The notes under the pieces: model-generated
Database searches by the model: none
Told to the model about the DNA's origin: nothing
The model's input: the letters and a program-made list of their open reading frames with translations, nothing else
Part shown: positions 10,251-42,131 of the stretch, one piece after another
Layout: each line of letters opens with the position of its first letter
How positions within the stretch are numbered: position 1 is the first letter of the stretch
Program-made: the position numbers and the translations under genes
From: Jiangellaceae bacterium
GTDB taxonomy: Bacteria; Actinomycetota; Actinomycetes; Jiangellales; Jiangellaceae
Assembly: GCA_036845485.1 (NCBI GenBank)
Contig: DAIUDS010000001.1
Location: forward strand, 3,574 to 67,573
Reading direction: 5' to 3'
Length of the DNA stretch: 64,000 nucleotides

Positions 10251-10439
10251 GGCCCGAGCCGACCACTCGGGAGTGGCTTACGCAACTCTGGGCCGACATG
10301 CTCTCCCGTCTTGTGGCGGGTTCTGCACGTCATGTGGACGGGTTTGGCGTGCTCTTCCCGCCACAAGATGGTGCGCGCGCGAGGCGACGCCGCTCTAGCA
10401 CTCCGCTGCGAGCGCTTCGCGGGAGCCGGTTGGCGGGTG

Positions 10440-26970: not shown

Positions 26971-27137
26971 TTCACCTGTCCCGATGCCCACTTCCCGGCG
27001 GATCGTAACACGGCAAAGATTAACGACTGCCGGCACCGACCGGAGGCGGTCGACCCCTGCCGCCCGCTTGCCAGCCGGCAAGCTCGTCACGGTCGGCTGT
27101 CCCCCCGGCGCACTGTTCCGGAAGTCGAGGAGGGAAA

Positions 27138-27657
27138 GTGCAGTACACCCAACTGGGGTCGTGCGGCCTCAACGTGTCGCGGATCTGCCTTGGCATGGCG
27201 GGGATCATCTTCTTCGACACCGCTGACGTCTATGACCGAGGCGCGAGTGAGGAGGTCACCGGCCGGCTCCTCGGCAAGCTCTTCGCCCGACGCAGCGACT
27301 ACGTGCTGGCCACAAAGGTCTTCTTCCCGATGGGTTCCGGGCCCAACGACGGGGGCCAGTCCCGCAAGCACATCATGGACAGCATCGACGCCTCCCTGCG
27401 GCGGCTCGGCACCGACTACGTCGACCTCTACCAGATTCACCGATGGGACCCCCGGACGCCAATCGAGGAGACCATGGGCGCGCTGAACGACGTGGTACGG
27501 GCGGGCAAGGCGCGTTACATCGGCGCCGTCATCGGCGCCACCAAGGGCCAACCACCTCGACGATGCGATCACCGCGGTGAACGTGACACTCAGCGAGGAA
27601 GAGACCGCCCACCTGGAGGCGCCGTACCGTCCCCACCGTGTCCTCGGCCACTCCTGA
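27138..27657 (+). pseudogene. aldo-keto reductase remnant (internal deletions plus a frameshift)
   Basis: The N-terminal and middle AKR blocks are present ([40 protein letters not shown]). They join directly to the extreme C-terminus in another frame ([29 protein letters not shown] 27655-27657). About 170 codons remain versus the ~330 typical of the family. Confidence 0.65.
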
Positions 27658-27734
27658 GTGACCGGCGGTCGCGTGGGCCGATGCCAAAACGGGCGCCCCT
27701 GTCCGGGACCTGGGCGCCCGAGCGCCCAGCGGTA

Positions 27735-29522
27735 TCAGCTCGGGATCACCACACCGGCGCTTCCCCCACCGCGACGTTGCGGCTCGGCGACCGCCTGCAA
27801 CAGCCCGCTGTCGAGGAACTCGATCCCAGTCGCGGCCCCGATTTCGGGGTTGTTGGCGAACAGGTGCCCGAGCGCGGCCAGTTCCGCGCGTGGGAAGCCC
27901 GGCTCGGCCTGCACCGAAGCGGTGTTGCGCTGGGTGGCCCGCGGCGCCGCGACAGCGTCGGGCAGCTCCATGCCGAGGTCCAGACGGTTCATGAGGATCT
28001 GCAGCACGGTTGTGATGATCGTCGATCCGCCCGGAGAACCGACGGCCAGCAGCGGCTCCCCGCCCTCGAGCACGATTGTCGGTGACATCGAGCTGCGCGG
28101 CCGCTTACCCGGTGCCGGCAGGTTGGGGTCGTTGCCCCCTTGTGTATCGGTGAAGTTGAAGTCGGTCAGCTCGTTGTTGAGCAGGAAGCCACGGTCGGGG
28201 ACGACGATGCCTGAGCCGCCTGTGGACTCGATGGTCAGCGTGTAGGCGACGACGTTGCCGAACCGGTCGGCGGTAGTGAGGTGTGTAGTGGACAGCCCCT
28301 CCTCGTCGGCCAGCGCGGCCGACGTCGCCGACCCACAGGTGGCGTCGTAGTCGCCGTCGGGCGACCCGGGAGCGACGGGCTTCGTCAGAGCGGTGAGTGA
28401 GATCTCGCACGCGCGCTCGGCCGCGAATCCGTCCGAGAGCAGTTCGTCCAGCGGCACGGCGACATGGTCGCTGTCGCCGACGTAACGGTTCCGGTCGGCG
28501 AAGGCCAGCGCGCTCGCCTCGAGATAGTGGTGCAGCGCCTGGGTCTCGCCGATCTCGGCGAGTGGGACGGCCTCCAGGATGTTCAACGCCTCGCCCACGG
28601 TCGATCCACCCGAGGATGGCGGCCCCATTCCGAAGACGTCCAGGCCGCGGTAAGTGACCGCGGTCGGTTCCCGCAGGAGGGCTTCGTACGACGCAAGGTC
28701 GCCGAGCTCCATCAGGCCTGGCCGGACGAGCCGGGTCACCCCGGGCGCGATCGGCGGCTCCTGCACCGCGTCGACGATCTCCTGCGCGAGCGGCCCGTTG
28801 TAGAGGGCTTGGACGCCCTGCTCGGCGAGCAGGTCGTAGGTCGCCGCCATGTCGCGGTTGCGGAACACGGTGCCCACCGCGGGGGGCTGCCCTCCCGGCA
28901 GGTAGAGCTCGGAGGTCGAGGTGAACTCCGCGAACCGCGCGGCGTTCGCGGCGGTCTGGTCGACGAAGGTCTGGTCGACGACGAAGCCCCTGAGGGCCAC
29001 CTGCGTGGCACCATGAAGCGCCTCGCCCAGGCTGATCGTTCCCCACTGGTCGAGCGCGACGTCCCAGGTCTGCGGCGTGCCGGGTACGCCGACGGACAGC
29101 CCGGAGGTGACGGCGTCGTTGAACGGGATCGGCGTGCCGTTCTCGACGAAGGCATCCTCTTGCATGGCCTGCGGCGCGGTCTCGCGCCCGTCGATCGTGT
29201 GCACCTCGCCGGTCGCCGCGTCGTAGTAGACGAAGAATCCGCCGCCGCCGATGCCCGCGGAGTAGGGCTCGGTCACACCGAGGGTCGCGGCCGCCGCTAC
29301 TGCCGCATCTACGGCGTTGCCACCCTTGCGCAGCACCTCGAGACCCACGCGGGTCGCCTCGGCATCGACCGTCGCGACCGCTCCACCGCTACCGACGGCG
29401 ACGGGATCTTTCTCGGTGGCCCGAGGCGCGCCGGCGGCCGGCGAGACGGGTGCAGCGACAAGCGCCATGGTCAGCGCGCCGCTGCCGAGAACGGCGCTCA
29501 GGCGGACTGGAGTACTGCGCAT
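27735..29522 (-). CDS. ggt: gamma-glutamyltransferase (secreted)
   Basis: Signal peptide, autoprocessing-site context ...[10 protein letters not shown], and [17 protein letters not shown] 29522 is preferred. Confidence 0.9.
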
Positions 29523-29600
29523 GAGAGGACCCCTCCTCGACAGGCGTGTTTCCGTCCTACCACAATCGGTCATGACTCCGCCGCCCTCACCGCCGAGACC

Positions 29601-30623
29601 TCATCGCACCGCGATGACGGCGTCCTCTCCGACAGAGCCTCGCGCCACCAGTTCGCCGATCACAGGAGCGCCTGGGATCTCGCCGGCGAGCAGGAGGCCG
29701 CCGGATGTCTGGGCGTCCGCGAGCAGCAGCAGTTCTCCCTCCCGCACCGATGCAGTCAGATGTGGTCGTACCCAATTGAGGTTCCGCCGCGTGCCGCCAC
29801 TCACGAAGCCGTCGCGCAGCGCATCGCGAGCACCGTCCAGGTAGGGAACGGCTGCGGCGTCGATGACGGCGGCGACGTCGCTAGCGCGCGCGAGCTTGTA
29901 GAGGTGGCCAAGGAGCCCAAAGCCCGTGACATCGGTGGCGGCCGTGATTCCGGCTGCGAGCGCGGCATGGCTGGCCTCCCGATTCAGCGTGATCATGGCC
30001 TCGACCGCCTGCGGGAAGACCTCGCCAGTCTGCCTGTGCCGGCTGTTGAGCACACCGATCCCGAGTGGCTTCGTGAGGCTGAGGGGCGTGCCGGCGCGAC
30101 CGTCGCGGATGCGCAGCAGGCGGTTGGCATCACCGATGCCGGAGATCGCCATCCCGTACTTGGGCTCGGGGTCGTCGACGCTGTGTCCACCAGCGACGTG
30201 GCAGCCGGCACTGCGCGCCACCTCGAAGCCGCCGCGGAGGACCTCCGCCGCGAGTTCAATCGGCAGCCGGTCGCGGGGCCAGCACAGGAGATTGATGGCG
30301 ACGAGCGGCTCTCCCGCCATGGCGTAGACGTCGGAAAGGGCGTTTGCGGCGGCGATGCGGCCCCAGTCGTACGGATCGTCGACGACGGGGGTGAAGAAGT
30401 CGACGGTGGCGATGATTGCGCGGCCGCCCTCGACACGGACGACGGCTGCGTCGTCCGCGTCGTCGAGGCCGACGATGAGCTCGCCCGGCGACTGGACATC
30501 TCGGCCAGCTCCGACGATGCCGGCAACGAGGTCCTCGAGCTCGCCGGGCGGGATCTTGCACGCACACCCGCTTCCGTGCGCGTAGGTCGTGAGCCGCTGC
30601 GGGATCTCCGAGAGGGTTACCAC
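29601..30623 (-). CDS. selD: selenide, water dikinase (selenophosphate synthetase), Cys form
   Basis: N-terminal HGSGCACKIPP motif and an AIR-synthase-like fold. The track start at 30713 would overlap the divergent tRNA-Sec, so GTG 30623 (VVTLSEIPQRLTTYAHGSGCACK) is preferred. Confidence 0.9.
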   Translation of the reverse strand: MVTLSEIPQRLTTYAHGSGCACKIPPGELEDLVAGIVGAGRDVQSPGELIVGLDDADDAAVVRVEGGRAIIATVDFFTPVVDDPYDWGRIAAANALSDVYAMAGEPLVAINLLCWPRDRLPIELAAEVLRGGFEVARSAGCHVAGGHSVDDPEPKYGMAISGIGDANRLLRIRDGRAGTPLSLTKPLGIGVLNSRHRQTGEVFPQAVEAMITLNREASHAALAAGITAATDVTGFGLLGHLYKLARASDVAAVIDAAAVPYLDGARDALRDGFVSGGTRRNLNWVRPHLTASVREGELLLLADAQTSGGLLLAGEIPGAPVIGELVARGSVGEDAVIAVR

Positions 30624-30671
30624 GGCCCGACCATAGACCCGCTCCGCGAGCGCCGCGCTAGCGTGGATGCC

Positions 30672-30767
30672 GGAGGCGTCTGGGTGCCTGGTGGCCCCCG
30701 CGGTCTTCAACACCGACGAGGCCGAGCACCTCGGCCTGGCGGGTTCGATTCCCGTCCGCCTCCGCCA
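30672..30767 (+). tRNA. selC: tRNA-Sec (anticodon UCA), 96 nt with encoded CCA
   Basis: The acceptor GGAGGCG pairs with CGCCTCC, followed by G-CCA. Anticodon loop is CUUCAAC (U33-UCA-A37). The long variable arm AGGCCGAG-CAC-CUCGGCCU is 8 bp. T-arm is GGCGGG-UUCGAUU-CCCGUC, giving 13 bp across acceptor plus T. It lies between selD and selA. Confidence 0.85.
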
Positions 30768-30779
30768 GTAGGATGAGCC

Positions 30780-32129
30780 ATGGTGGACGCCCGACGCGAT
30801 ACCCGTCGCCGTGTGCCCCGAACCAATGAGGTGTTAGCCGAGCCGCGGGTCGCTGCTGCCGCCGCGCGTCTCGGACGCCCGATCGTCAAAGCAGCCGTCG
30901 CACGCGGCCAGCAGGCGGTACGTGAGGGTCGCGCCGAGCCGGACGCGGTGGCCGACCTGGCTCTGGCCTCGCTGCCGCCCTTCGCTTCCTCGTTGCGGCC
31001 GGTGGTGAACGCGACGGGCGTGCTCTTGCACACCAATCTCGGGCGCGCGTCCCTGTCCGCCGCCGCGGTTGATGCCGTCACGGCTGCCTCGAGCACCACA
31101 GACATCGAGTTCGACCTCACTACGGGCGTGCGGGCGCGGCGCGGCCGCGGCGCTCTCGCCGCGCTGGCCGAGGCGGTGCCCGATGCCGAGGCCGTACACG
31201 TCGTCAACAATGGCGCCGCCGCCGTCGCGCTCGCGGCCTCCGCGCTCGCCGCAACGCCGCCGTCCGAGCCGCGGGAAGTCATCGTCAGCCGTGGCGAGAT
31301 GGTCGAGATCGGTGATGGCTTCCGCTTGCCTGATCTCGTTGCCTCCACTGGTGCGGTGCTGCGCGAGGTTGGTACGACGAACCGGACGGCGCTGCGGGAC
31401 TACGCGGACGCCGTTGGGCCATGCACGGCGATGGTGCTCAAGGTGCACCCCTCGAACTTTGTCGTTGAGGGGTTCACGTCGACGGTGCCGGTCGCCGAGC
31501 TGACGACGCTCGGATTGCCGGTCGTCGTCGACATCGGGTCAGGGCTCTTGACGGCCCATCCGCTGCTGCCGTCCGAGCCTGACGTGGCGAGTGCCCTTCG
31601 GGCCGGGGCGGCACTCGTGACAGCGAGCGGGGACAAGCTGCTTGGTGGCCCCCAGGCCGGCCTGCTGCTCGGCCGGGCGGACGTGGTCCTGCGGATACGC
31701 CGCCATCCGATGGCGCGGGCCGTCCGGGTCGACAAGCTCACCCTTGCCGCGCTCGAGGCGACATTGCGCGGCCATCGGCCTCCGGTACTTGCCGCGCTGG
31801 AGGCCGCGCCGGACAAAATATGGACGAGAGCAGAGCGGCTGGCTGGAAATCTCGTCACGGCGGGTCTTGACGCCGAGGCCGTGGCCAGCAATGCCGCGGT
31901 CGGCGGCGGCGGGGCGCCGGGCGTCGTACTTCCAAGTGCAGCGGTCGCCCTACCGACCGCGTTCGCAGAGACGTTGCGGACGCCGGCCGCAGCGGGGGTT
32001 CCGCCCGTCGTCGGACGGGTCGAGCGGGGCCGATGCCTGCTCGACCTTCGAACAGTTCCTCCGGAGCGCGACGATGACTTGCTGACGGCCGTTCTTGCCG
32101 CGGCTCACGCCTCCCGTCCTGACCGTTGA
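30780..32129 (+). CDS. selA: L-seryl-tRNA(Sec) selenium transferase
   Basis: Typical N-terminus (VPRTNEVL...) and PLP-lysine context ASGDKLLGGPQAG. Starts 13 nt after the tRNA-Sec. Confidence 0.9.
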   Translation: MVDARRDTRRRVPRTNEVLAEPRVAAAAARLGRPIVKAAVARGQQAVREGRAEPDAVADLALASLPPFASSLRPVVNATGVLLHTNLGRASLSAAAVDAVTAASSTTDIEFDLTTGVRARRGRGALAALAEAVPDAEAVHVVNNGAAAVALAASALAATPPSEPREVIVSRGEMVEIGDGFRLPDLVASTGAVLREVGTTNRTALRDYADAVGPCTAMVLKVHPSNFVVEGFTSTVPVAELTTLGLPVVVDIGSGLLTAHPLLPSEPDVASALRAGAALVTASGDKLLGGPQAGLLLGRADVVLRIRRHPMARAVRVDKLTLAALEATLRGHRPPVLAALEAAPDKIWTRAERLAGNLVTAGLDAEAVASNAAVGGGGAPGVVLPSAAVALPTAFAETLRTPAAAGVPPVVGRVERGRCLLDLRTVPPERDDDLLTAVLAAAHASRPDR

Positions 32130-33907
32130 TGCAGGTCATCGCCACCGCCGGCCACGTCGACCACGGGAAGTCGACGCTCGTCCGAGCGCTCACGGGGATG
32201 GAACCCGATCGCTTTGAGGAGGAGCGGCGCCGAGGACTGACGCTGGACCTGGGCTTCGCGTGGACGAGGCTCGACGGCGAGGACATCGCATTCGTCGATG
32301 TGCCCGGGCACGAGCGGTTCGTCCCGACGATGTTGTCCGGGGTTGGGCCGGTGCCGGCAGTGCTGTTCGTCGTCGCCGCCGACGACGGATGGAAGCCACA
32401 ATCGCAGGAGCACCTTGACATCCTCGACGCGCTCGGCGTTCGGCATGGGCTCCTCGTCATCTCACGATGCGATCTCGCCGAACCCGGCCCGGCGCTGGCC
32501 CAAGCGCGCGAACGGATGGCCGGCACCTCCTTGGCCGGCACCGAGTCCGTGGCCGTGAGCGGGGTGACAGGGGATCGCATGGTGGACCTGCGAGCGGCGC
32601 TGCTCCGGCTCGTGAGGACTTTGCCGACGCCGGATCGGGCTGCGGCTGTCCGGTTGTGGGTGGACCGATCGTTCACGATCCGGGGCGCCGGAACTGTTGT
32701 CACTGGCACGGTGCCGGCAGGAACGCTGCGGGTCGGCGACCGGCTCGCCCTGCCGTGGGGCCGCGAGGCAAGCATACGCAGCCTCCACGCGCTGGGGCAG
32801 CCGGCCCAAGTGGTGCCGGCGGTCGCGCGGGTGGGGGTGAACCTGCGAGGTGTAGCGCCCGATGATGTCAGGCGCGGCGACGCACTCACGACGCCGAGCA
32901 GTCACCTCGAGGTCGACGTCGTGGATGTCCGGCTGCGCCGACCCGTTGAGGGTGGCGCGCAGCGACAGCGGGTGCTGCACATCGGGACGGCACAGGTGCC
33001 CGTGCAGGTTCGGTCGCTTGGCGACGCGCACGCGCGCCTGTTGCTGCGGCGGCCGCTTCCGCTGAGGATCGGAGACCGGTGTCTGCTGCGCGACCCGGGA
33101 CGACACCGTGTCGACACAGGACTGGTGGTGCTCGACGTCGACCCGCCGAAGCTTGTGCGCCGCGGCGACGGCCGCCGCCGGGCGGATGCGCTCGCGTCTT
33201 ACAGCGAGCGCGCCGACCCAGCGGCCGAGCTGCGGCGGCGGCGGCTCGTCCAGCGCATTCGGCTCGTCACGATGGGGGTTCGCCCGGCCGAGGTCGACGC
33301 CGTGCGTAGCGCGGTCGACGACCCGGTCTGGCTACTGGACCCCGAGACGGCTGAGGACCTGCGTGCGCGGCTGTCGGCTCTGGCGACGGAGCATGCTGTT
33401 GCGTCGCCATTGCAGCCGGGGCTTCCGGTCGACGTCGCCTGCCAGAGGCTCGGCCTGCCGGAGGCCCGACTGGTGTCAAAACTCGTGGCCGAGCCACTCG
33501 TGGTGCGCCACGGGCAGGTGCACGCCGGACCTACGGTGCCTCCGCTTCCGCCCGAGGTCGACGAGGCTGTCCAAGCGGTGCTCGCCGATCTGGCCTCAGC
33601 GCCGTGGGCGGCGCTCGAGACCAACCGTCTACGCGAACTCGGACTCGGACCGCGCGAACTCGCCGCTACCGTGCGGACAGGCGCCCTCGTCCGCGTTGCC
33701 GACGGCATCTACTTGGCGCCTGGGGCCGTGGAGGCCGCGGCCCAGCGGCTGCGCGAATTGCCGCAACCGTTCGCGGTCACTGAGGCGCGCAAGACATGGC
33801 AGACAACCCGCCGCGTCGCCATCCCGCTCCTCGAACTGCTTGACCGACGGGCCTTCACGCGTCGTCTGCCGGACGGCCGTCGTGTCGTCACAGCCGAGCC
33901 CCGATGA
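32126..33907 (+). CDS. selB: selenocysteine-specific translation elongation factor
   Basis: G-domain IATAGHVDHGKSTL, DVPGHERF, and a long winged-helix C-terminal extension. TTG 32126 or ATG 32129 overlaps the selA stop. Confidence 0.9.
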   Translation: MMQVIATAGHVDHGKSTLVRALTGMEPDRFEEERRRGLTLDLGFAWTRLDGEDIAFVDVPGHERFVPTMLSGVGPVPAVLFVVAADDGWKPQSQEHLDILDALGVRHGLLVISRCDLAEPGPALAQARERMAGTSLAGTESVAVSGVTGDRMVDLRAALLRLVRTLPTPDRAAAVRLWVDRSFTIRGAGTVVTGTVPAGTLRVGDRLALPWGREASIRSLHALGQPAQVVPAVARVGVNLRGVAPDDVRRGDALTTPSSHLEVDVVDVRLRRPVEGGAQRQRVLHIGTAQVPVQVRSLGDAHARLLLRRPLPLRIGDRCLLRDPGRHRVDTGLVVLDVDPPKLVRRGDGRRRADALASYSERADPAAELRRRRLVQRIRLVTMGVRPAEVDAVRSAVDDPVWLLDPETAEDLRARLSALATEHAVASPLQPGLPVDVACQRLGLPEARLVSKLVAEPLVVRHGQVHAGPTVPPLPPEVDEAVQAVLADLASAPWAALETNRLRELGLGPRELAATVRTGALVRVADGIYLAPGAVEAAAQRLRELPQPFAVTEARKTWQTTRRVAIPLLELLDRRAFTRRLPDGRRVVTAEPR

Positions 33908-33987
33908 GGGTCAAGCCCACGGTCGTGTGGATGAAGGCCGTCACCACGTGATCTGGTGGCCAGCTCTCGAGCCCTAGCCTGACCGTC

Positions 33988-34593
33988 ATGACCGACAGTG
34001 ACTTTACCGACCTCCGCGGCAAGGAGTTCGAGCGCACGGAGATGACGGGGGCGCGGTTCACCACGGTGAGCGTCAACGGGGCGACGTTCCGGGCATGTGA
34101 GCTCAAACAGGTCGTGATGCGCGGCGTCGAAATTGTCGACACCACCATCGACGGCGAGATTCCCCCGGAGATGCTGCACGAGTCGGTCGACGGCGAGTGG
34201 TCATTGATCCAGACCCTGCGCCACCTCGCCTTCGCGACCGAGTCGTGGGTCGGCCGCTGCATCCTGGGCGATCCCAGTCCTTGGCACCCGCTGTCCCTGC
34301 CGTGGGACCAGATGGGTCACCGGCCCGGAGTGCCGCACGACCGTGACGCGCGCCCGTCGCTCGACGAGGCGCTCGCCTTGCGGCTGGAGGCGATGGCGAT
34401 GATGCGGCGGGTGGTCGACGGTCTGGCCGACGAGCAGCTCGACAGCCGGACCGAGCCGCTCGTGGGTCCCGGCTGGCCGGACGAGGGCGACACCTTCCCC
34501 GTCCGCGAGTGCCTGCTGATCGTCCTCAACGAGGAGTGGTGGCACCGCATGTACGCCCAGCGCGACCTGGCCGTCCTCGAGGAACGAGACTGA
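33988..34593 (+). CDS. DinB-family protein with an N-terminal pentapeptide-repeat-like segment
   Basis: The N-terminal ~45 aa look like pentapeptide repeats. The C-terminal part has DinB-like helices (TLRHLAFATESW...NEEWWH). Confidence 0.6.
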   Translation: MTDSDFTDLRGKEFERTEMTGARFTTVSVNGATFRACELKQVVMRGVEIVDTTIDGEIPPEMLHESVDGEWSLIQTLRHLAFATESWVGRCILGDPSPWHPLSLPWDQMGHRPGVPHDRDARPSLDEALALRLEAMAMMRRVVDGLADEQLDSRTEPLVGPGWPDEGDTFPVRECLLIVLNEEWWHRMYAQRDLAVLEERD

Positions 34594-34597
34594 CCTC

Positions 34598-34885
34598 GTG
34601 GAGCTCGTCTTCACCGGCCGGGTGATCGAATGGCGCGGGCCGTCGCCGTACTACTTCGTCCCCGTGCCGGACGAGGAGTCCGCCGACATCCGTGAGGTGG
34701 CCGCGATGGCCACGTACGGCTGGGGCGTGATCCCGGTCGAGGCCCGGATCGGCGAGGTCGCCTTCGAGACGTCGCTCTTCCCCAAGGACGGCGGCTACCT
34801 GCTGCCGCTCAAGGACGCTGTGCGCAAGCCGCGGAGCCTCTCGGCAGGTGACGAGGTGACTGTGGAGATGACCATCCGTCTCTAG
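34598..34885 (+). CDS. DUF1905 domain protein
   Basis: ELVFTGRVIEWRGPSPYYFVPVP...FETSLFPKDGGYLLPLK. Confidence 0.7.
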   Translation: MELVFTGRVIEWRGPSPYYFVPVPDEESADIREVAAMATYGWGVIPVEARIGEVAFETSLFPKDGGYLLPLKDAVRKPRSLSAGDEVTVEMTIRL

Positions 34886-34887
34886 CT

Positions 34888-34985
34888 CTACCACGTCGGT
34901 GCGGCGGCGGATCTCGCGGTTGAGCCACTTGGAGGGTTGCTGGACCAGATCCTGGCGCCAGATCTTCTTGGGAAGTGTGAGGTCG
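34888..34985 (-). mobile_element. IS256-family transposase C-terminal fragment (scar)
   Basis: Minus-strand translation LPKKIWRQDLVQQPSKWLNREIRRRTDVV matches the conserved IS256 block (..NP.ERLN.EI.RRTDVVGIFP). No remainder of the gene is present. Confidence 0.6.
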
Positions 34986-34990
34986 ATCGC

Positions 34991-35470
34991 TCACAGGGAG
35001 GCTAGGACCTCGAGTGCCTCCTCGATGTCAGGGGTCTCGAGTGCGTCGTCCGTCATCCACCGGTAGCGGATCGTGCCTTCGCGGTCGATCACGAAGAGTG
35101 AGCGCTTCGCCAGGCCGTCGTGCTCCTTCCAGACGTCGTACTTCACGCCGTACGCCGCGCATGTCTCCCGCCCCCAATCCGACAGCAGCGGGAACGGGAC
35201 GCCCAGATGCTTCGCGAACGCCATCTGGGAGAACGTCGCCGTGACGGCGATCGCCGCGATCCGTCCCCTCATCGCCTCGACCCGAGGCGCCTCCTGTCCC
35301 AACTGGGACAGCTCGGTGCTTCAAACGGAGCCGAAGTCGAAAACATAGAAAGCCAGGAGCAGCGGTCCCTTTGCGAGGAGGTCCTCGAGAGACACCCTCT
35401 CGTCGAACGTCTTGCGCAGCGAGAACGACGGCGCCGTATCGCCGACGCCCGGACCCGTCGTCTCAGTCAT
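34991..35470 (-). CDS. AhpE/Bcp-like peroxiredoxin with an in-frame UGA (predicted Sec) at the peroxidatic position
   Basis: From ATG 35470: MTETTGPGVGDTAPSFSLRKTFDERVSLEDLLAKGPLLLAFYVFDFGSV-TGA(35323..35321)-STELSQLGQEAPRVE... It continues in the same frame into track ORF 34991..35302 (..FPLLSDWGRETCAAYGV..SLFVIDREGTIRY). 159 codons in total. Confidence 0.8.
35282..35316 (-). promoter_or_regulatory. SECIS-like stem-loop immediately 3' of the UGA
   Basis: mRNA reads UGA AGCA-CCGAG-CUGUCCC-AGUU-GGGACAG-GAGGCGC-CUCGG. It has a 7-bp perfect upper stem, a GU-containing tetraloop starting 17 nt after the UGA, and a 5-bp lower stem. Confidence 0.65.
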
Positions 35471-36155
35471 CTAGCAGCGCCACCGCTCGGGTCGGGCCGC
35501 CATGCGCACCCTTCAGCTTCAGCGGCAGGCCGATGAAGGTGAAGCGGCGTCCGGCGACCTGGTCGAGGTTCGTCAGGTTCTCGTAGTGCGTGATGTGGTG
35601 CTTCCTCCCCATCATGTGGATCGGGTAGATCCTGCTGGACGGGTTGTCCGGCGTACAGGTGTCGATCCCGAAGGACTTCACGCCTCGTTCGACGATCCAG
35701 TCCGCCACGTCGGCGCCAAGCCCCGGGAACTCGATCAGGTATTCGGGCGTGCCGCCGAATTTCGTCGCCGTCCCCGTGTGGAAGAGGACGATATCGCCGG
35801 GCCGCAGCTCCTGTCCGGCGCCCGCCAACCCTTGCTCGACACGCGACACCGGGATGTCGGTCCGGGGCTCAGCGCCGGTCACGTCGATGCACACGGCGTC
35901 GCCGTAGAACAGCTCCAGAGGCATCTCGTCGATGGTCGGTGCCGACGGATCGGGGTCGAGGTGACTGAACGAGTCGACGTGCGTCGGCCCGTTGTCGTTC
36001 ATCAGAAAACCCTTCGTCTGGAACGAGAACCCGCTGTCGAATCGCGGCGCCGTCTCTGTGTGCGACACGTGGTCGAACAGCACGGTCTTCAGGTGGCCGG
36101 GGTAGACCATCATCCCCGTGTAGATCTCCTGCGAGAGGTCGACGATCCTCGACAT
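35463..36155 (-). CDS. cyclase family protein (kynurenine-formamidase-like fold)
   Basis: NGPTHVDSFSH metal-binding motif. 230 aa. Its stop overlaps the peroxiredoxin ATG (ATGACTGA). Confidence 0.75.
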   Translation of the reverse strand: MSRIVDLSQEIYTGMMVYPGHLKTVLFDHVSHTETAPRFDSGFSFQTKGFLMNDNGPTHVDSFSHLDPDPSAPTIDEMPLELFYGDAVCIDVTGAEPRTDIPVSRVEQGLAGAGQELRPGDIVLFHTGTATKFGGTPEYLIEFPGLGADVADWIVERGVKSFGIDTCTPDNPSSRIYPIHMMGRKHHITHYENLTNLDQVAGRRFTFIGLPLKLKGAHGGPTRAVALLDD

Positions 36156-36166
36156 CCGATCTCCTT

Positions 36167-36970
36167 TCAGTACATCACCATTCCGCCGCTCACGTTCAGG
36201 TCCACGCCCGTGACCGCCGAGAGCTCCCCCAGCGTGAGTGACACCACGGCATTCGCCACCTCAGGGGGCTCGACGAGCCTCCCGATCGGGATCTGCGCGA
36301 CCATCTCGGCGCGCGCCTCCTCGACCGGGATGCCGCGCCCTTCCGCCTGCGCTCGGAACACCCAATCCATGCGCTCACCCTCGACGGGTCCGGGCGAGAC
36401 GAGATTCACCCGCACCCCGGACGGCGCCGTCTCGAGGGCGAGTGTGCGGACCAGTCCGACCAACGCCAGCTTGCTCGCCGCGTACGGCGTTCGCCCCCAG
36501 AGGGGGCGCTTTCCTGTCATGGAACCGACTACCACCATCGAGCCACGGCGCCGCGCCAGCATTGCGGGCAGGAACGCGCGCGCACTGAGGAACACGCCGG
36601 TCACGTTCACGGCGAAGGTCTCGTCCCACGCCTTGCGGTCGAGCTCCCAGAGGGGACCACTCGGGCCACCGATGCCACTGTTGGCGACGACCGCGTCCAC
36701 GACACCGAACCGCTCGTACGAGACACGGCCGAGGACTGCCACGTCCTCCTCCGACGTCACGTCGGTCCGGACGCACAGGGTCGCGACGCCGGCGGTGGCG
36801 GCGGCCTCCGCGGTTGCCTCCAGCGTGGATAGGTCGCGGCCGGCGAGCACCACGTCGGCGCCGGCGCCGGCGAGCGCGAGCGCGATCGCGCGGCCGATCC
36901 CCCGCCCGGCACCAGTGACCACGGCCACGGGCGCCGGCAGTGGCCGGCTGTCACTCACCCTGGTCCTCAC
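36167..36970 (-). CDS. SDR family oxidoreductase
   Basis: VTGAGRGIGRAIA cofactor loop, NSGIGG, and YAASKLAL catalytic YxxxK. The start may be GTG 36958. Confidence 0.85.
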   Translation of the reverse strand: MRTRVSDSRPLPAPVAVVTGAGRGIGRAIALALAGAGADVVLAGRDLSTLEATAEAAATAGVATLCVRTDVTSEEDVAVLGRVSYERFGVVDAVVANSGIGGPSGPLWELDRKAWDETFAVNVTGVFLSARAFLPAMLARRRGSMVVVGSMTGKRPLWGRTPYAASKLALVGLVRTLALETAPSGVRVNLVSPGPVEGERMDWVFRAQAEGRGIPVEEARAEMVAQIPIGRLVEPPEVANAVVSLTLGELSAVTGVDLNVSGGMVMY

Positions 36971-38276
36971 CCTGTCCCGGCGGGACTGGCGGCAGCGCGT
37001 CCGGGTACCGTCCCGGGTCGAGCCGCAGCCTTGCCGTGAGCGCGTGACCGAACATCAACTCGGCGTCGGCAATCGCGGCGGTTGTCTCCGCCACCCGCGC
37101 CGATCCCTCGGCCGTCACGCGCTGGTACGTGACGGCCTTGAGAAACTTGCCGACCCAAAGACCGCCGGTGTAGCGAGCCGCGCGGCGCGTCGGCAGCACG
37201 TGGTTCGTGCCGATCGCCTTGTCGGAGAACGCCACCGTCGCGTGCGTCCCGAGGAAGAGAGTGCCGTAAGAACTCATCCGCTTGAGGTACCAGTCAGGGT
37301 CCTCGGTCTGGATCTCGAGGTGCTCGGGGGCGATGTCGTCGGCGACTTTCGCGGCCTCCTCGTCGTCCTCGCACACGATGATCGCGCCGTGGTCGCGCCA
37401 CGCGGCGCCTGCTATCTCCTTCGTCGGCCACTCCCCGTCGAGCCAAGCGTCCACCGCGTCGCTCACCTGACGCGCGAGTTCCTCAGACGTCGTGACCAGG
37501 GTGGCCGGTGAGTTCGGGCCGTGCTCGGCCTGACCGAGCAGGTCTGCGGCCACGATGTCGGGATCGGCGGAGTCGTCCGCGAGGACCATCACCTCGGTCG
37601 GCCCGGCGAGCAGGTCGATCCCGACGGCTCCGAACAGCTGCCGCTTCGCCTCGGCGACGTAGGCATTGCCGGCGCCGACGAGCATGTCGACCGGCGCCAG
37701 GTCTCCGAACCCGAACGCCATCGCGGCGAACGCCTGCACTCCGCCGATGCAGAGGATCTCGTCAGCGCCCGAGGTCGCCATAGCGTAGAGCTGTGGCGGG
37801 TGCATTCCGGCGGGGCCCCGCGGAGGCGCGCAGGCGACGACCCGGGGGACGCCGGCGACTTTCGGCGTCACGACTGTCATGATCGCCGACGCGATGAGCG
37901 GATACAGCCCGCCCGGTGAGTACGCGCCGACCGAGTCAACCCTGATGAAGCGCTGCCCGAGCGTGACACCGGGCAGGGTCTGCCACTCCCGGTCGACCAG
38001 GGTGGACCGCTGAAGCTCGGCGAACTTACGGACCTGCGCCTGGGCGAACGCCACGTGATCACGAAGCTCCTCGGAGAGAGCACCCTCTGCGGCGGAGACA
38101 TCCTCTGGGGAGACGCGGAACGAGGGCGGGCTCCACCCGTCGAACCGCTCGGAATAGCGACGCACCGCCGGCTCGCCTTCGCGCTCAACCGCCGACAGGA
38201 TCTCGCTCACCGTCGCGCGGATCTCGGCCCATGTCTCCGCAGAGATTCCCGTCCGCTCCTTCACATAACGGGCCAT
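36951..38276 (-). CDS. histidinol-dehydrogenase-family (HisD-like) NAD-dependent dehydrogenase, in a non-histidine context
   Basis: 441 aa. HisD-like blocks (GGVQAFAAMAFG, GAGNAYVAEAKR, GPTEV, QAEHGP, GDY-like region). No other his genes are nearby. Confidence 0.8.
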   Translation of the reverse strand: MARYVKERTGISAETWAEIRATVSEILSAVEREGEPAVRRYSERFDGWSPPSFRVSPEDVSAAEGALSEELRDHVAFAQAQVRKFAELQRSTLVDREWQTLPGVTLGQRFIRVDSVGAYSPGGLYPLIASAIMTVVTPKVAGVPRVVACAPPRGPAGMHPPQLYAMATSGADEILCIGGVQAFAAMAFGFGDLAPVDMLVGAGNAYVAEAKRQLFGAVGIDLLAGPTEVMVLADDSADPDIVAADLLGQAEHGPNSPATLVTTSEELARQVSDAVDAWLDGEWPTKEIAGAAWRDHGAIIVCEDDEEAAKVADDIAPEHLEIQTEDPDWYLKRMSSYGTLFLGTHATVAFSDKAIGTNHVLPTRRAARYTGGLWVGKFLKAVTYQRVTAEGSARVAETTAAIADAELMFGHALTARLRLDPGRYPDALPPVPPGQGEDQGE

Positions 38277-40190: not shown

Positions 40191-40904
40191 ATGGTCGAGG
40201 GACTACGACTCGAGACCTCGGGTCACACCCTGACGATCACCATCGACTCCGGCGAGGGCAACCTGTTCTCGCCCGAGATGATGGACGCCCTGGTCGACGG
40301 GATCCAGGAGGCCGGCCGCGGTGGGGAGGTGCGGTTCGTTCGACTACGAGCCGAGGGTGACGTGTTCTGCATGGGCCGGGCGAAGGGCGGCGCGTCGCCG
40401 GACGAGCTCCGGAGCACAGCTCGTCGGATCGTCACGGTGAACGAGACCCTTCGTACGACGCCCTTGACCGTGATCACCGAGGTGAACGGGAGCGCGGCCG
40501 GCTTCGGTGCCGGGATGATCGGTGCCAGCGACATCGCGGTCGCCGCCGAGACGGCCACGTTCGCGTTCCCAGAGATCAAGGCGGGCTTCGCCCCGGCCGT
40601 CGTGCTCAGCTGGGCGCGTTTCCAGATGCCGGTGCGTCTGCTCTACGACATGGTCTCCACGGGGGACGCGATCGACGCGCCGCGCGCACTCGCGGCCGGC
40701 CTCCTGACCGAGGTCGTCTCGCCCGACGCGGTAGCCGAGCGAGTAGACGAGCGGATCGAGCGGCTCGCGGCGGTCGATGCGTTCTCTCTCCGGGAGATGA
40801 AACGGTTCCTCGTGTCCACCCGGGCCATGGATCCGTGGACAGCGGCACAGGCATCGGTGGACACGCTGGTTTTCAGCGGGCTTCGCGCAATCGGGAAGTT
40901 CTGA
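40191..40904 (+). CDS. enoyl-CoA hydratase/isomerase (crotonase) family protein
   Basis: Crotonase-fold pattern (FCMGRA.., NGSAAGFGAGMIGASD, FPEIKAGF). Confidence 0.75.
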   Translation: MVEGLRLETSGHTLTITIDSGEGNLFSPEMMDALVDGIQEAGRGGEVRFVRLRAEGDVFCMGRAKGGASPDELRSTARRIVTVNETLRTTPLTVITEVNGSAAGFGAGMIGASDIAVAAETATFAFPEIKAGFAPAVVLSWARFQMPVRLLYDMVSTGDAIDAPRALAAGLLTEVVSPDAVAERVDERIERLAAVDAFSLREMKRFLVSTRAMDPWTAAQASVDTLVFSGLRAIGKF

Positions 40905-40925
40905 GTCTGCAACCTTTGCTGGGCT

Positions 40926-40943
40926 GCACATAGTATATAGTCG
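40926..40943. promoter_or_regulatory. AT-rich box upstream of the ABC importer genes (candidate operator)
   Basis: gcacatagtatatagtcg. Its reverse complement CTATATACTATGTGC shares ATATACTAT with the 38307-38333 box. Confidence 0.4.
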
Positions 40944-41030
40944 GCCAAGCATAGTCGACGACGCGGTTTCACGACGTGGAAGGCCTCGGATGAGGTCTGG
41001 GAGGTCCGGACCAGAGGAGGACGCGGGCCG

Positions 41031-42086
41031 ATGAGGATCAAGCGCAAGGCCGGGATCGTCCGCACGTTGACGATGATGAGCGTGCTCGCCCTCGTTGCGG
41101 CGGCATGCGGGGACGACGACGGTGGGGACGGTGCTTCCGGCGGCGGGGACACCGCAGAAGAGGGCATCATCCGCTTCACCTTCGCCCCCGACCCGGTGTG
41201 GGACTACCTGAAAGACTCGGGCATCCGCGAAGAGATGGAGTCCGAGTCCGGGATCAGGGTCGTCGAGCAGGCGAGCTGGGACGAGTTCGGGCTCTACGCC
41301 GGTGGGCACGCGGACGTCGTCTCGATCGCGTCGTTCGAGGTGCCGCTCCTCGAGGACGAGACCGGCAACCCAGCCACGGTATTCGGCAAGTACAACATCG
41401 ACCGGAGCATCCTCGTCGTGCCGGCCGACTCCGACGCGCAGACGCTCGAGGACCTGAAGGGCGAGAAGATCGCCGTCTGGGACTCGGTGTCCTCCACGGT
41501 GGTCTGGGGGGTGCTCGCCAACGAGATGTACGGCTTGGACTTCCGGACTGGCGGCGGCGACTTCGAGCTCGTGGTTGCCGACCTCACCAACACCGGGGCA
41601 CTGGCGGCTGATCATGAAGTGGCCGGCGCGCTGGTGCTGCCGGACTTCAACGTCCCACCGCTGCTGAACGGCGACGTCCGCGTCCTGTACGACGGGAGGA
41701 CAGCGGCCGATCTCTACGCGGAGGTGGCCGAGGCACCGGACCACGACGGACCGATGATCAACATCTTCATGGCGCCGACGGACTGGTACGACGACCACCC
41801 CGACGAGGTCGAGTTCTTCCTGTCGATGTGGGAGCGCGGCATCCAGGAGTGGCAGGCAAACCAGGACGAGATCATCGAGAGCTATCCGCAGCACTTCGCC
41901 GTCGAGACCCCCGAGGAGATCGCCTTCATCAAGGACTATCTCAGTCAGCACGACTGGTTCGTCGAGACCGTGTACCTCGACGACGAGTGGGTCGAGACCG
42001 AGTCGATGATCTTCCCGATGCTCGCCGACGCCGGTCTCTCCGAGTCTGACGAAAGCCCGCGGTTCGACGTGGTCGAAGCGCCTTAG
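41031..42086 (+). CDS. ABC transporter substrate-binding lipoprotein (NMT1/TauA/SsuA-like)
   Basis: Lipobox LVAAAC|GDDDG. 351 aa. Followed by NitT/TauT-type permeases and an ATPase. Confidence 0.7.
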   Translation: MRIKRKAGIVRTLTMMSVLALVAAACGDDDGGDGASGGGDTAEEGIIRFTFAPDPVWDYLKDSGIREEMESESGIRVVEQASWDEFGLYAGGHADVVSIASFEVPLLEDETGNPATVFGKYNIDRSILVVPADSDAQTLEDLKGEKIAVWDSVSSTVVWGVLANEMYGLDFRTGGGDFELVVADLTNTGALAADHEVAGALVLPDFNVPPLLNGDVRVLYDGRTAADLYAEVAEAPDHDGPMINIFMAPTDWYDDHPDEVEFFLSMWERGIQEWQANQDEIIESYPQHFAVETPEEIAFIKDYLSQHDWFVETVYLDDEWVETESMIFPMLADAGLSESDESPRFDVVEAP

Positions 42087-42131
42087 TGGTCGAACCCGAT
42101 CCGGGGACGTGAGCGGCAGGGAGAGCGGCGC

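What the first reader, a model, noticed from the sequence alone, without database searches (positions are those of the whole stretch)
34991..35470. Predicted selenocysteine peroxiredoxin: an in-frame TGA at the peroxidatic position plus a SECIS-like hairpin, missed by the ORF track
The track shows only a 103-aa ORF (34991..35302, minus strand) that starts in the middle of a thioredoxin-fold peroxiredoxin. Reading upstream in the same frame, the only interruption is one TGA at 35323..35321. Before it lie 49 further sense codons, starting from an ATG at 35470. The joined 159-codon product reads GDTAPSFSL...GPLLLAFYVFDFGSV[TGA]STELSQL...FPLLSDWGRETCAAYGV...SLFVIDREGTIRY. The stop therefore sits exactly where AhpE/Bcp-type peroxiredoxins carry the peroxidatic Cys (F-x-x-F-T-x-x-C-x-x-E). 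Ten nucleotides after the UGA the mRNA can form CUGUCCC-AGUU-GGGACAG, a 7-bp perfect stem with a GU-containing apical loop, extended by a CCGAG/CUCGG lower stem. That position and shape are what a bacterial SECIS is expected to have. A full Sec-decoding gene set lies about 1.1 kb away. Sec-containing peroxiredoxins are known from a few anaerobes (PrxU of Eubacterium acidaminophilum). As far as I recall, an AhpE-like one in a high-GC actinobacterium, next to its own sel genes, is not a described arrangement.
Basis: partly seen in the sequence, partly recalled or inferred. Interest (0 to 1): 0.9.

Follow-up and report, generated by a model that had tools for sequence, protein, structure and literature searches.

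The report
Selenocysteine peroxiredoxin gene miscalled as truncated
This is a real gene for a small antioxidant-type enzyme whose catalytic residue is the rare amino acid selenocysteine; gene finders cut it in half here and in many related soil bacteria because the codon looks like a stop, but enzymes of this general kind are already known.

Summary
Minus-strand ORF 35470..34991 has one in-frame TGA (35323..35321), and the joined 159-aa product is a PrxQ/BCP-type peroxiredoxin with the stop at the peroxidatic-Cys position. The selenocysteine reading is strongly supported. All 61 species-level relatives fetched carry a stop at that column, between conserved coding sequence. Almost all database homologues are 100-110-aa truncated calls. 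More distant full-length relatives have Cys there. An 18-nt hairpin (35311..35294, loop AGUU) meets all published bacterial SECIS rules, shows compensatory changes, and suppresses synonymous variation. selD, tRNA-Sec, selA and selB lie in the window. All six Geodermatophilus genomes examined carry TAG instead of TGA, and that family is reported to have tRNA-Sec with a CUA anticodon. The CCGAG/CUCGG lower stem is not conserved. The sel-gene adjacency is found only in this window. The claim of novelty in actinobacteria is weakened, because a Sec-TAG "AhpC" was reported in Blastococcus in 2017. The clade does replace the canonical PxxxTxxC motif with an invariant VxxxGxxU, and no Cys form was found within it. 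Verdict: a well-supported new member of a known selenoprotein kind, widely misannotated; moderate interest.

The parts
34991..35470 (-). Complete coding sequence of the selenoprotein: 159 residues plus a terminal TGA stop at 34993..34991. The ATG at 35470 overlaps the stop of the upstream cyclase gene (ATGACTGA).
   Evidence: Pfam AhpC-TSA 89.2 bits, profile positions 1-123 of 124. tblastn matches to residues 1-159 in 61 genomes.
35321..35323 (-). Sec codon (UGA) at the peroxidatic-Cys column.
   Evidence: A stop at this column in 62 of 62 sequences: 60 TGA and 2 TAG. Four more Geodermatophilus loci have TAG. Cys is here in 105 of 120 more distant full-length relatives.
35294..35311 (-). Bacterial SECIS core hairpin: 7-bp stem CUGUCCC/GGGACAG with a 4-nt apical loop.
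   Evidence: MFE -11.3 kcal/mol. 84% of cells paired, covariation 0.221 against 0.129 in shuffles (0 of 500), pair 16-27 seen as UA/UG/AU/GC/GU. A 5-8 bp hairpin in 62 of 62 sequences.
35301..35304 (-). Apical loop AGUU, with invariant G and U. The UUG at 35302..35300 is both the loop/closing nucleotides and the false TTG start of the 103-aa ORF call.
   Evidence: Alignment columns 20-23 are invariant in 62 sequences. Leu codon UUG in 53 of 53, against 7.4% of Leu codons elsewhere in the same genes.
35282..35316 (-). It is present here and in close relatives only, and is probably not part of the functional element.
   Evidence: 36.9% paired across 62 sequences, the same as slid controls.
35463..36155 (-). 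Upstream gene in the same transcription direction: putative cyclase/arylformamidase family. Its stop overlaps the selenoprotein start.
   Evidence: Pfam PF04199, E 1.1e-29. A homologue is present in 24 of 61 related loci and ends at the start of the selenoprotein match in at least 13 of them (L001-L012, L040).
36167..36970 (-). Short-chain dehydrogenase gene of the same gene string.
   Evidence: Pfam adh_short_C2, E 2.3e-53. Homologues at 50% identity or more in about 16 related loci.
36951..38276 (-). Histidinol-dehydrogenase-family gene at the head of the gene string.
   Evidence: Pfam PF00815, E 2.1e-131, and TIGR00069 at 431.7 bits. Homologues at 64% identity or more in 15 related loci.
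30672..30767 (+). tRNA-Sec (selC), anticodon UCA, which matches the UGA codon.
   Evidence: ARAGORN. Rfam RF01852, 69.8 bits, E 5.1e-13.
30780..32129 (+). selA, selenocysteine synthase.
   Evidence: TIGR00474, 414.3 bits against a cutoff of 267.9.
32126..33907 (+). selB, the Sec-specific elongation factor, including the C-terminal winged-helix domain that binds SECIS.
   Evidence: TIGR00475, 258.1 bits against a cutoff of 242.25. Pfam SelB-wing_3, E 2.4e-13.
29601..30713 (-). selD, selenophosphate synthetase. The ORF as listed runs into tRNA-Sec, so the true start is probably further in.
   Evidence: TIGR00476, 371.4 bits against a cutoff of 125. The HMM match begins at residue 40.

Best explanation
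The region encodes one 159-residue selenoprotein, a 1-Sec peroxiredoxin of the PrxQ/BCP-AhpE type. It is not a 103-residue fragment. Shown by comparison: the UGA at 35323..35321 is a conserved sense position, and an 18-nt hairpin with an invariant AGUU loop begins nine nucleotides after it and is maintained at the RNA level. Inferred from the established bacterial mechanism (E. coli and Moorella SelB-SECIS, summarised in PMC1794560 and PMC13188914): SelB-GTP carrying Sec-tRNA(Sec, anticodon UCA) binds the loop through its C-terminal winged helix while the ribosome has the UGA in the A site, and delivers selenocysteine instead of terminating. SelD makes selenophosphate, and SelA converts Ser-tRNA(Sec) to Sec-tRNA(Sec); all four genes are in the window. 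Inferred from family membership: the selenolate, at the first turn of helix alpha-2 and next to the conserved Arg123, attacks a hydroperoxide to give a selenenic acid. An external thiol reductant regenerates it, because no resolving Cys is conserved. The gene is probably co-transcribed and translationally coupled with the upstream cyclase, SDR and HisD-like genes.
For: Frame and product. Family: Pfam AhpC-TSA E 2.5e-25 over the whole profile. Best solved relatives are S. tokodaii PrxQ 2ywn (E 3.4e-22), A. pernix BCP and S. solfataricus Bcp4, then M. tuberculosis AhpE, with Cp aligned to the UGA. The AF2 model of orthologue P0068 (pLDDT 79.5) matches those structures at TM 0.78-0.87, and the Sec column is at the start of helix alpha-2. 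Conserved stop: 62 of 62, with AFYVFDFG upstream and E, L, Q, G downstream invariant. Homologues in the 5.8-billion-protein set are nearly all 100-110-aa truncated calls. One of the only two 'full-length' entries is a TGA read as Trp by the gene caller. Cys lies opposite the stop in 105 of 120 relatives at 25-43% identity. SECIS: all four published rules are met (PMC13188914). There is covariation. Synonymous entropy drops to 0-0.24 bits at codons +5 to +7, against 1.3-1.6 bits at comparable sites. In L062 the stem is kept although the peptide changes to LRD. Machinery. Natural codon swap: 6 of 6 Geodermatophilus genomes have TAG with the same hairpin and 60 of 60 others have TGA; Geodermatophilaceae tRNA-Sec is reported to have anticodon CUA (PMC5330540, section 17). 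TGA is an ordinary stop in this organism: the cyclase gene and this gene itself both end in TGA.
Against: There is no experimental evidence of selenium incorporation or of a full-length product. The window hairpin alone is not significantly more stable than shuffles, and Rfam has no model that detects it. The canonical catalytic Pro and Thr/Ser of peroxiredoxins are replaced by Val and Gly, so peroxidase activity is an inference that could be wrong. The CUA anticodon was not verified in the six Geodermatophilus genomes used here, because no tRNA-Sec lay within the loci fetched. Presence of sel genes in the other 61 genomes was not checked. One orthologue (L063) has CGA at the column.
Confidence: 0.88

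Rival explanations
1. It is a genuine selenoprotein with a peroxiredoxin fold, but it is not a peroxidase. Having lost the Pro and Thr that position and activate peroxide, it would act as a thiol/selenol-disulfide oxidoreductase, or on a specific substrate connected with the neighbouring HisD-like, SDR and cyclase enzymes.
For: VxxxGxxU is invariant in 62 of 62 sequences where Prx enzymes have PxxxT/SxxC. The review calls PxxxTxxU crucial for peroxide binding (PMC13188914). The gene sits in a conserved string with catabolic-type enzymes in about a third of genomes. In Geodermatophilus it sits between an FAA-hydrolase gene and molybdenum hydroxylase genes.
Against: The Arg of the catalytic site is conserved (115 of 120 relatives and the whole clade), and so is the Glu at +3. 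The fold and the position of the catalytic residue are those of PrxQ. Val and Gly at these positions also occur sporadically in Cys-containing relatives (17 and 15 of 120). There is no CxxC/UxxC redox motif; position +3 is always Glu. The gene neighbourhood is not uniform.
Confidence: 0.22
2. The UGA is read through with a standard amino acid (Trp, Cys or Arg by near-cognate tRNA, or a reassigned code), so the full-length protein exists but contains no selenium.
For: A JGI gene call translated the orthologous TGA as Trp. One orthologue has CGA (Arg) at the column.
Against: TGA terminates the neighbouring cyclase gene and this gene itself, so the code is not reassigned. A complete Sec machinery is present. 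The hairpin fits the SelB-binding SECIS consensus and is selected at synonymous sites. The switch to TAG exactly in the lineage reported to have tRNA-Sec(CUA) is not expected under near-cognate readthrough (PMC5330540). Trp or Arg at the catalytic position would give an inactive enzyme.
Confidence: 0.04
3. The gene is broken or split. The TGA is a nonsense mutation (pseudogene), or the functional product is the 103-aa C-terminal fragment started at TTG 35302, as annotated in public databases.
For: Gene callers and RefSeq annotate 100-110-aa 'redoxin domain-containing proteins', and in Geodermatophilus a separate 49-50-aa ORF as well.
Against: The same stop is kept in 66 genomes spanning about 50% protein divergence, with the upstream 49 codons conserved at protein level (invariant AFYVFDFG). 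A 103-aa product would lack beta-strands 1-3 and the catalytic residue. The TTG 'start' is the invariant UUG of the hairpin loop.
Confidence: 0.02

Closest known systems
[quoted passage not shown] 2017, PMC5330540, section 17 and S4 Fig)
   Same: An actinobacterial AhpC/TSA-family protein with Sec at the catalytic Cys column and a bSECIS directly after the codon, in the family Geodermatophilaceae. Six Geodermatophilus orthologues of the window gene also use TAG.
   Different: The window gene uses the standard UGA and comes from an uncultured Actinomycetota lineage. Identity of the Blastococcus gene with this clade could not be checked, because the sequence is only in a figure. That paper reported one gene, not the clade, its SECIS covariation or the VxxxGxxU motif.
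Bacterial Sec-containing peroxiredoxins (Prx selenoprotein family, PF00578, TxxU; PrxU of Eubacterium/Peptoclostridium acidaminophilum, NCBIfam NF040737)
   Same: The same Pfam family, Sec at the peroxidatic position, and a SECIS in the coding region after the UGA (PMC1794560, PMC13188914).
   Different: The match to the PrxU model is 48 bits against a cutoff of 270. The defining PxxxTxxU motif is VxxxGxxU here. PrxU and most listed Sec-Prx are from anaerobes, whereas this clade is in high-GC Actinomycetota (window GC 68.5%). No Cys form was found within the clade.
PrxQ/BCP peroxiredoxins of Sulfolobus and Aeropyrum (PDB 2ywn/4g2e, 3hjp, 2cx3) and M. tuberculosis AhpE (1xxu/1xvw)
   Same: These are the closest solved structures by sequence (E 3.4e-22 to 2.8e-16) and by fold (TM 0.78-0.87). 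They have the same length, the same position of the catalytic residue and the same conserved Arg.
   Different: They use Cys with the canonical P...T/S...C motif; the window protein uses Sec with V...G...U. Identity is only 32-35%.
E. coli fdhF-type bacterial SECIS (consensus model of Zhang and Gladyshev, as given in PMC13188914)
   Same: A stem-loop immediately 3' of the UGA, a small apical loop with G then U, 16 nt of spacing, and a stem of 5-8 bp.
   Different: The sequence is unrelated. The spacing is at the minimum of the allowed range. No bulged U was identified. The lower stem is not conserved.

Membership tests
Bacterial selenoprotein gene (Sec-UGA plus bSECIS) | In-frame UGA with conserved coding sequence on both sides, kept across species | tested here: met
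   A stop at the same column in 62 of 62 sequences, plus 4 further Geodermatophilus loci and L062. Flanking residues are invariant.
Bacterial selenoprotein gene (Sec-UGA plus bSECIS) | bSECIS rule i: apical loop of 3-9 nt and upper stem of 4-16 bp (PMC13188914) | tested here: met
   Loop of 4 nt in 48 sequences and 5 nt in 14 (6 nt in L062). Stem of 5-8 bp in 62 of 62.
Bacterial selenoprotein gene (Sec-UGA plus bSECIS) | bSECIS rule ii: G in one of the first two loop positions, usually followed by G or U | tested here: met
   The loop is AGUU(N), and A, G, U, U are invariant in 62 of 62.
Bacterial selenoprotein gene (Sec-UGA plus bSECIS) | bSECIS rule iii: 16-37 nt between the UGA and the apical loop | tested here: met
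   Exactly 16 nt (alignment columns 4-19) in all sequences.
Bacterial selenoprotein gene (Sec-UGA plus bSECIS) | bSECIS rule iv: MFE of -7.5 kcal/mol or lower | tested here: met
   Window core hairpin -11.3 kcal/mol. 61 of 62 sequences are at or below -7.5.
Bacterial selenoprotein gene (Sec-UGA plus bSECIS) | Hairpin maintained by selection on the RNA (compensatory changes, suppressed synonymous variation) | tested here: met
Bacterial selenoprotein gene (Sec-UGA plus bSECIS) | selA, selB, selC and selD in the same genome | tested here: met
   All four are in the window, above the curated cutoffs. This was not checked in the other genomes.
Bacterial selenoprotein gene (Sec-UGA plus bSECIS) | Cys-containing homologues with Cys aligned to the UGA | tested here: met
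   Cys in 105 of 120 nearest full-length relatives.
Bacterial selenoprotein gene (Sec-UGA plus bSECIS) | The codon matches the anticodon of the genome's tRNA-Sec | tested here: inconclusive
   In the window, UGA matches anticodon UCA. TAG is found in 6 of 6 Geodermatophilus genomes, but the CUA anticodon rests on PMC5330540, because no tRNA-Sec lay in the loci fetched.
Bacterial selenoprotein gene (Sec-UGA plus bSECIS) | Selenium actually incorporated into the protein | not testable with these tools
   This needs 75Se labelling or MS.
Peroxiredoxin (Pfam PF00578 AhpC-TSA; PrxQ/BCP-AhpE type) | Match to the family model above the curated threshold | tested here: met
   89.2 bits against a gathering score of 26, covering profile positions 1-123 of 124.
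Peroxiredoxin (Pfam PF00578 AhpC-TSA; PrxQ/BCP-AhpE type) | Thioredoxin-type Prx fold with the peroxidatic residue in the first turn of helix alpha-2 | tested here: met
   The model of orthologue P0068 matches 2ywn, 3hjp and 4g2e at TM 0.78-0.87. The Sec column is residue 48, between strand 35-41 and helix 50-64. Local pLDDT is only about 60.
Peroxiredoxin (Pfam PF00578 AhpC-TSA; PrxQ/BCP-AhpE type) | Catalytic Pro of PxxxT/SxxC | tested here: not met
   Val in 62 of 62 clade members. Pro in 85 of 120 relatives and Val in 17.
Peroxiredoxin (Pfam PF00578 AhpC-TSA; PrxQ/BCP-AhpE type) | Catalytic Thr/Ser of PxxxT/SxxC | tested here: not met
   Gly in 62 of 62 clade members. Ser or Thr in 89 of 120 relatives and Gly in 15.
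Peroxiredoxin (Pfam PF00578 AhpC-TSA; PrxQ/BCP-AhpE type) | Conserved active-site Arg | tested here: met
   R123 in the motif GLAKRSLFVID. Arg in 115 of 120 relatives and throughout the clade.
Peroxiredoxin (Pfam PF00578 AhpC-TSA; PrxQ/BCP-AhpE type) | Peroxide reduction activity | not testable with these tools
   This needs an enzyme assay.
PrxU (NCBIfam NF040737, equivalog) | Score at or above the curated cutoff | tested here: not met
   48 bits against a cutoff of 270.
Prx-like thiol:disulfide oxidoreductase selenoproteins (UxxC/UxxU) and Prx-like2 (UxxS) | Second redox residue three positions after Sec | tested here: not met
   Position +3 is Glu in 62 of 62. NF040769 SelL-related scores 29.5 bits against a cutoff of 120.

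The most novel reading that the evidence does not exclude
This is an obligately selenocysteine-dependent clade of PrxQ-like proteins, widespread in high-GC Actinomycetota, many of them soil MAGs. Sec has made the otherwise near-universal catalytic Pro and Thr dispensable (VxxxGxxU), or has accompanied a shift to a non-peroxide substrate tied to the HisD-like/SDR/cyclase gene string. The same gene has followed the tRNA-Sec anticodon from UGA to UAG in Geodermatophilaceae, and possibly to the sense codon CGA in one uncultured relative (L063).
Probability: 0.2. Interest if true: 0.65.

Novelty: new member of a known kind. Interest (0 to 1): 0.45.

Why it matters
Practically, public annotation cuts this gene in two: in the window, in RefSeq records of cultured Geodermatophilus strains, and in most of the 240 closest database entries listed. 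No NCBIfam model scores it above its curated cutoff. A family model with the Sec column marked would correct many records and would add a selenoprotein to the count for Actinomycetota lineages in which it is currently called as a fragment. Scientifically, the clade offers three things: (1) a compact, invariant-loop SECIS with natural compensatory variants; (2) a natural UGA-to-UAG swap in cultured, tractable strains, which is a ready-made test of SECIS-directed decoding; (3) a Sec enzyme lacking the Pro/Thr activation motif, which bears on what Sec buys a peroxiredoxin. None of this overturns current understanding.

Tried and rejected
(1) Single-sequence folding of the window hairpin gave z = -1.54, uninformative in 68.5% GC DNA, so I used comparative tests instead. 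(2) Rfam with permissive thresholds over 27000..37000 found only tRNA-Sec; Rfam lacks a usable bSECIS model. (3) A window-wide scan for other in-frame TGA genes, using GC3 plus a downstream hairpin, returned 31 candidates and missed the target gene itself. It does not discriminate in a high-GC genome and was abandoned. (4) A scan for UGSC-motif selenoproteins found nothing. (5) Six-frame ORF clustering of neighbourhoods was swamped by spurious high-GC ORFs, so I relied on tblastn with the window's proteins. (6) A search for tRNA-Sec near the gene in 16 other loci found none, so the CUA anticodon could not be confirmed directly. (7) The Mukai et al. 2016 paper (PMC4833512) is not held; its result is taken second-hand from PMC5330540. 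(9) The idea that VxxxG is unique to the Sec clade was rejected: Val or Gly occur in some Cys relatives, and V..G..C forms exist at 25-31% identity. (10) No sigma-70 promoter or intrinsic terminator pattern was found in 34400..35600.
Full report
OBSERVATION. The sequence is as described. The ORF listing reports a 103-aa ORF at 34991..35302 on the minus strand, starting at TTG. Translating 35470..34991 (-) gives MTETTGPGVGDTAPSFSL...LLAFYVFDFGSV*STELSQLGQEAPR...SLFVIDREGTIRY...LASL*. The single internal stop is a TGA at 35323..35321. The ATG at 35470 overlaps the TGA stop of the upstream gene (ATGACTGA), an arrangement typical of translational coupling. The hairpin CUGUCCC-AGUU-GGGACAG lies at 35311..35294, nine nucleotides after the UGA.

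WHAT THE PROTEIN IS. With Cys in place of the stop, the 159-aa product matches Pfam AhpC-TSA at E 2.5e-25 over profile positions 1-123 of 124, and also matches Redoxin. No NCBIfam model reaches its curated cutoff; PrxU scores 48 bits against 270. The closest solved structures by sequence are Sulfolobus tokodaii PrxQ (2ywn/4g2e, E 3.4e-22), Aeropyrum pernix BCP (2cx3) and S. solfataricus Bcp4 (3hjp), followed by M. tuberculosis AhpE (E 2.8e-16). In those alignments the stop column faces the peroxidatic Cys: query FYVFDFGSV-C against FYPAAFTQV-C. An AlphaFold2 model of the orthologue P0068 (mean pLDDT 79.5, pTM 0.80) matches the same structures at TM 0.78-0.87. It puts the column at the first turn of helix alpha-2, after strand 35-41.

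IS THE STOP A SENSE CODON? Four independent lines of evidence say yes.

(a) In the 5.8-billion-protein collection, 468 homologues pass E 1e-5. Of the 120 best, all but one are 93-110-aa calls covering only the C-terminal 55-67% of the query. A second search with the Geodermatophilus version gives the same picture, including RefSeq 'redoxin domain-containing protein' entries of 106-110 aa.

(b) In one genome per species (GTDB), 61 loci encode a relative whose tblastn match runs across the stop. All 61 have a stop at the same column, flanked by invariant AFYVFDFG upstream and E-L-x-Q-x-G downstream.

(c) The only two 'full-length' database entries are special cases. P0272 is a TGA that a gene caller translated as Trp. 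P0068 really has CGA.

(d) An exhaustive HMMER search of 1.84 billion representatives finds no full-length protein closer than 40% identity to P0068. Of the 120 nearest full-length relatives, 105 have Cys at the column. So the clade has no detectable Cys form, while its outgroups use Cys there.

THE HAIRPIN. I aligned 48 nt starting at the stop codon from all 62 sequences; the alignment is ungapped.

- For the 7-bp stem, 84% of cells are standard pairs. Pair 16-27 occurs as UA, UG, AU, GC and GU, and pair 15-28 as GC, GU and CG. The covariation score is 0.221 against 0.129 in shuffles (0 of 500 reach it), and every slid register scores lower.
- Column 27 is the wobble base of a Gly codon, so its co-variation with the first base of the Ser/Ile/Thr/Ala codon cannot be a protein effect.
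- Scoring each sequence in its own register, all 62 form a 5-8 bp stem closed on AGUU (48 sequences) or AGUU+N (14 sequences). L062 keeps the stem with a 6-nt loop, although the peptide changes from LGQ to LRD.
- Synonymous variation collapses in the loop region: Ser TCC in 49 of 51, Gln CAG in 62 of 62, Leu TTG in 53 of 53. TTG is only 7.4% of Leu codons elsewhere in these same genes, and four-fold sites elsewhere carry 1.3-1.6 bits of entropy.
- The published bSECIS rules are a loop of 3-9 nt, a stem of 4-16 bp, G in the first two loop positions usually followed by G or U, 16-37 nt from the UGA to the loop, and MFE at or below -7.5 kcal/mol (PMC13188914). All are met: AGUU, 5-8 bp, exactly 16 nt, -11.3 kcal/mol here, and at or below -7.5 in 61 of 62.
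- The stability of the window sequence alone is not significant (z = -1.54), and Rfam detects nothing there. The case rests on comparison.

MACHINERY AND A NATURAL CODON SWAP. The window holds selD (TIGR00476, 371 bits), tRNA-Sec with anticodon UCA, selA (414 bits) and selB (258 bits, with the SECIS-binding winged helix). TGA is otherwise a normal stop here, since both the cyclase gene and this gene end in TGA. Two of the 61 genomes have TAG instead of TGA, and both are cultured Geodermatophilus. Four more Geodermatophilus strains fetched afterwards also have TAG, followed by the same hairpin. Their annotation splits the gene into a 49-50-aa ORF and a 106-110-aa ORF. That makes 6 of 6 Geodermatophilus with TAG against 60 of 60 others with TGA. 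PMC5330540 (section 17, citing Mukai et al. 2016) states that tRNA-Sec of Geodermatophilaceae carries anticodon CUA and that their selenoprotein genes carry a matching codon. I could not confirm the anticodon in these six genomes, because no tRNA lay in the loci fetched, so this step rests on the literature. Even so, it is the pattern expected only if the codon is read by tRNA-Sec.

MECHANISM. Shown: a conserved sense UGA, an RNA-selected hairpin of SECIS form at the minimum allowed spacing, a complete sel gene set, a Prx fold, the catalytic-position match and a conserved Arg123. Inferred from the established bacterial pathway: SelB carrying Sec-tRNA(Sec) binds the loop and inserts Sec at the UGA. 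Inferred from family: the selenolate reduces a hydroperoxide and is recycled by an external thiol system. There is no conserved resolving Cys, because Cys104 of the window protein is Ala, Ser, Val or Thr in many orthologues.

A DEPARTURE FROM THE FAMILY. The canonical PxxxT/SxxC motif is VxxxGxxU in 62 of 62 sequences. The review describes PxxxTxxU as crucial in Sec-peroxiredoxins (PMC13188914). Among the 120 nearest Cys relatives, Pro is present in 85 and Val in 17, and Ser or Thr in 89 and Gly in 15. V..G..C proteins exist but are distant, at 25-31% identity. The substitutions are therefore not unique to the Sec clade, but they are fixed in it. This keeps open a rival in which the protein is not a classical peroxidase.

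CONTEXT. The HisD-family, SDR and cyclase genes lie upstream on the same strand, and the cyclase overlaps the start of the selenoprotein gene. Homologues of these three lie near the gene in 15-24 of the 61 genomes. In Geodermatophilus the neighbours are different: an FAA hydrolase upstream and molybdenum hydroxylase subunits downstream. selA and selB are not within 6 kb of the gene in any of the 61 other genomes, not even in relatives at 78-86% identity. No tRNA-Sec was found in the 16 loci scanned.

COMPARISON AND NOVELTY. Sec-peroxiredoxins are one of the commoner bacterial selenoprotein families: 12 proteins in the 2006 survey and 91 proteins in 78 organisms in the 2016 survey (PMC1794560, PMC5029168). 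An AhpC selenoprotein with Sec-TAG and a bSECIS was reported for Blastococcus saxobsidens DD2 in 2017 (PMC5330540). It is probably this same clade, but I could not compare sequences. Full-text searches found no other description of the clade. I rate it a new member of a known kind. What is worth recording is its breadth (61 species-level genomes, mostly Acidimicrobiia and other Actinomycetota, and hundreds of metagenomic clusters), the absence of a Cys form, the fixed VxxxGxxU motif, the UGA/UAG partition, and the systematic misannotation.

VERDICT. Confidence that this is a Sec-decoded full-length Prx-fold protein is about 0.88; confidence that it is a peroxidase is lower, about 0.65. Interest is 0.45.

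Noticed in passing
L063:1220-1320 (Logan SRR33880243 contig, protein P0068): One orthologue has CGA (Arg) where all others have TGA or TAG, yet the downstream hairpin CTGTCCCAGTTGGGACAG is intact. It could be a read or assembly error, a dead allele, or Sec recoding of a sense codon. The contig is too short to hold a tRNA-Sec.
   Followed up: partly
L062:268-738 (JGI 3300071300, protein P0272): The gene caller translated the orthologous TGA as Trp, presumably under an alternative code, which produced a false 'full-length' protein. The hairpin here has a 6-nt loop and encodes LRD instead of LGQ, so the stem is kept although the peptide changes.
   Followed up: yes
Proteins P0200, P0208, P0174: More distant AhpC-TSA relatives (31-34% identity, canonical P..T or P..G) also show Trp at the peroxidatic column. 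They are probably further Sec-peroxiredoxin lineages whose TGA was read as Trp by gene callers.
   Followed up: no
L064-L067, positions about 9839-10333 (cultured Geodermatophilus spp.): The assemblies annotate the gene as two ORFs, 49-50 aa and 106-110 aa, separated by TAG. The neighbours differ from the window: an FAA-hydrolase gene upstream and FAD/2Fe-2S/molybdopterin hydroxylase subunit genes downstream.
   Followed up: partly
window 30672-30713: The selD ORF as listed (29601..30713, minus strand) overlaps tRNA-Sec (30672..30767, plus strand) by 42 nt. The SelD model match starts at residue 40, so the real start is probably about 40 codons further in, and selD and selC are divergently arranged.
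   Followed up: partly
window 28464-30776 (+) and 40344-43211 (-): Very long ORFs (770 and 955 aa) with no Pfam match. The first lies antisense to the gamma-glutamyltranspeptidase and selD genes. They are typical spurious ORFs of a 68.5% GC genome, not genes.
   Followed up: partly
window 35300-35302: The TTG that the ORF track uses as the start of the 103-aa ORF is the invariant UUG Leu codon that forms the end of the SECIS loop and the first closing base. This explains why gene callers pick starts just after the hairpin in many genomes.
   Followed up: yes
L055 (Chthoniobacterales MAG) and L061 (Acidobacteriota MAG): Two carriers are labelled as non-actinobacterial MAGs. L055 is very similar to L051 (Acidimicrobiales) around the stop. 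This may be binning contamination or horizontal transfer.
   Followed up: no
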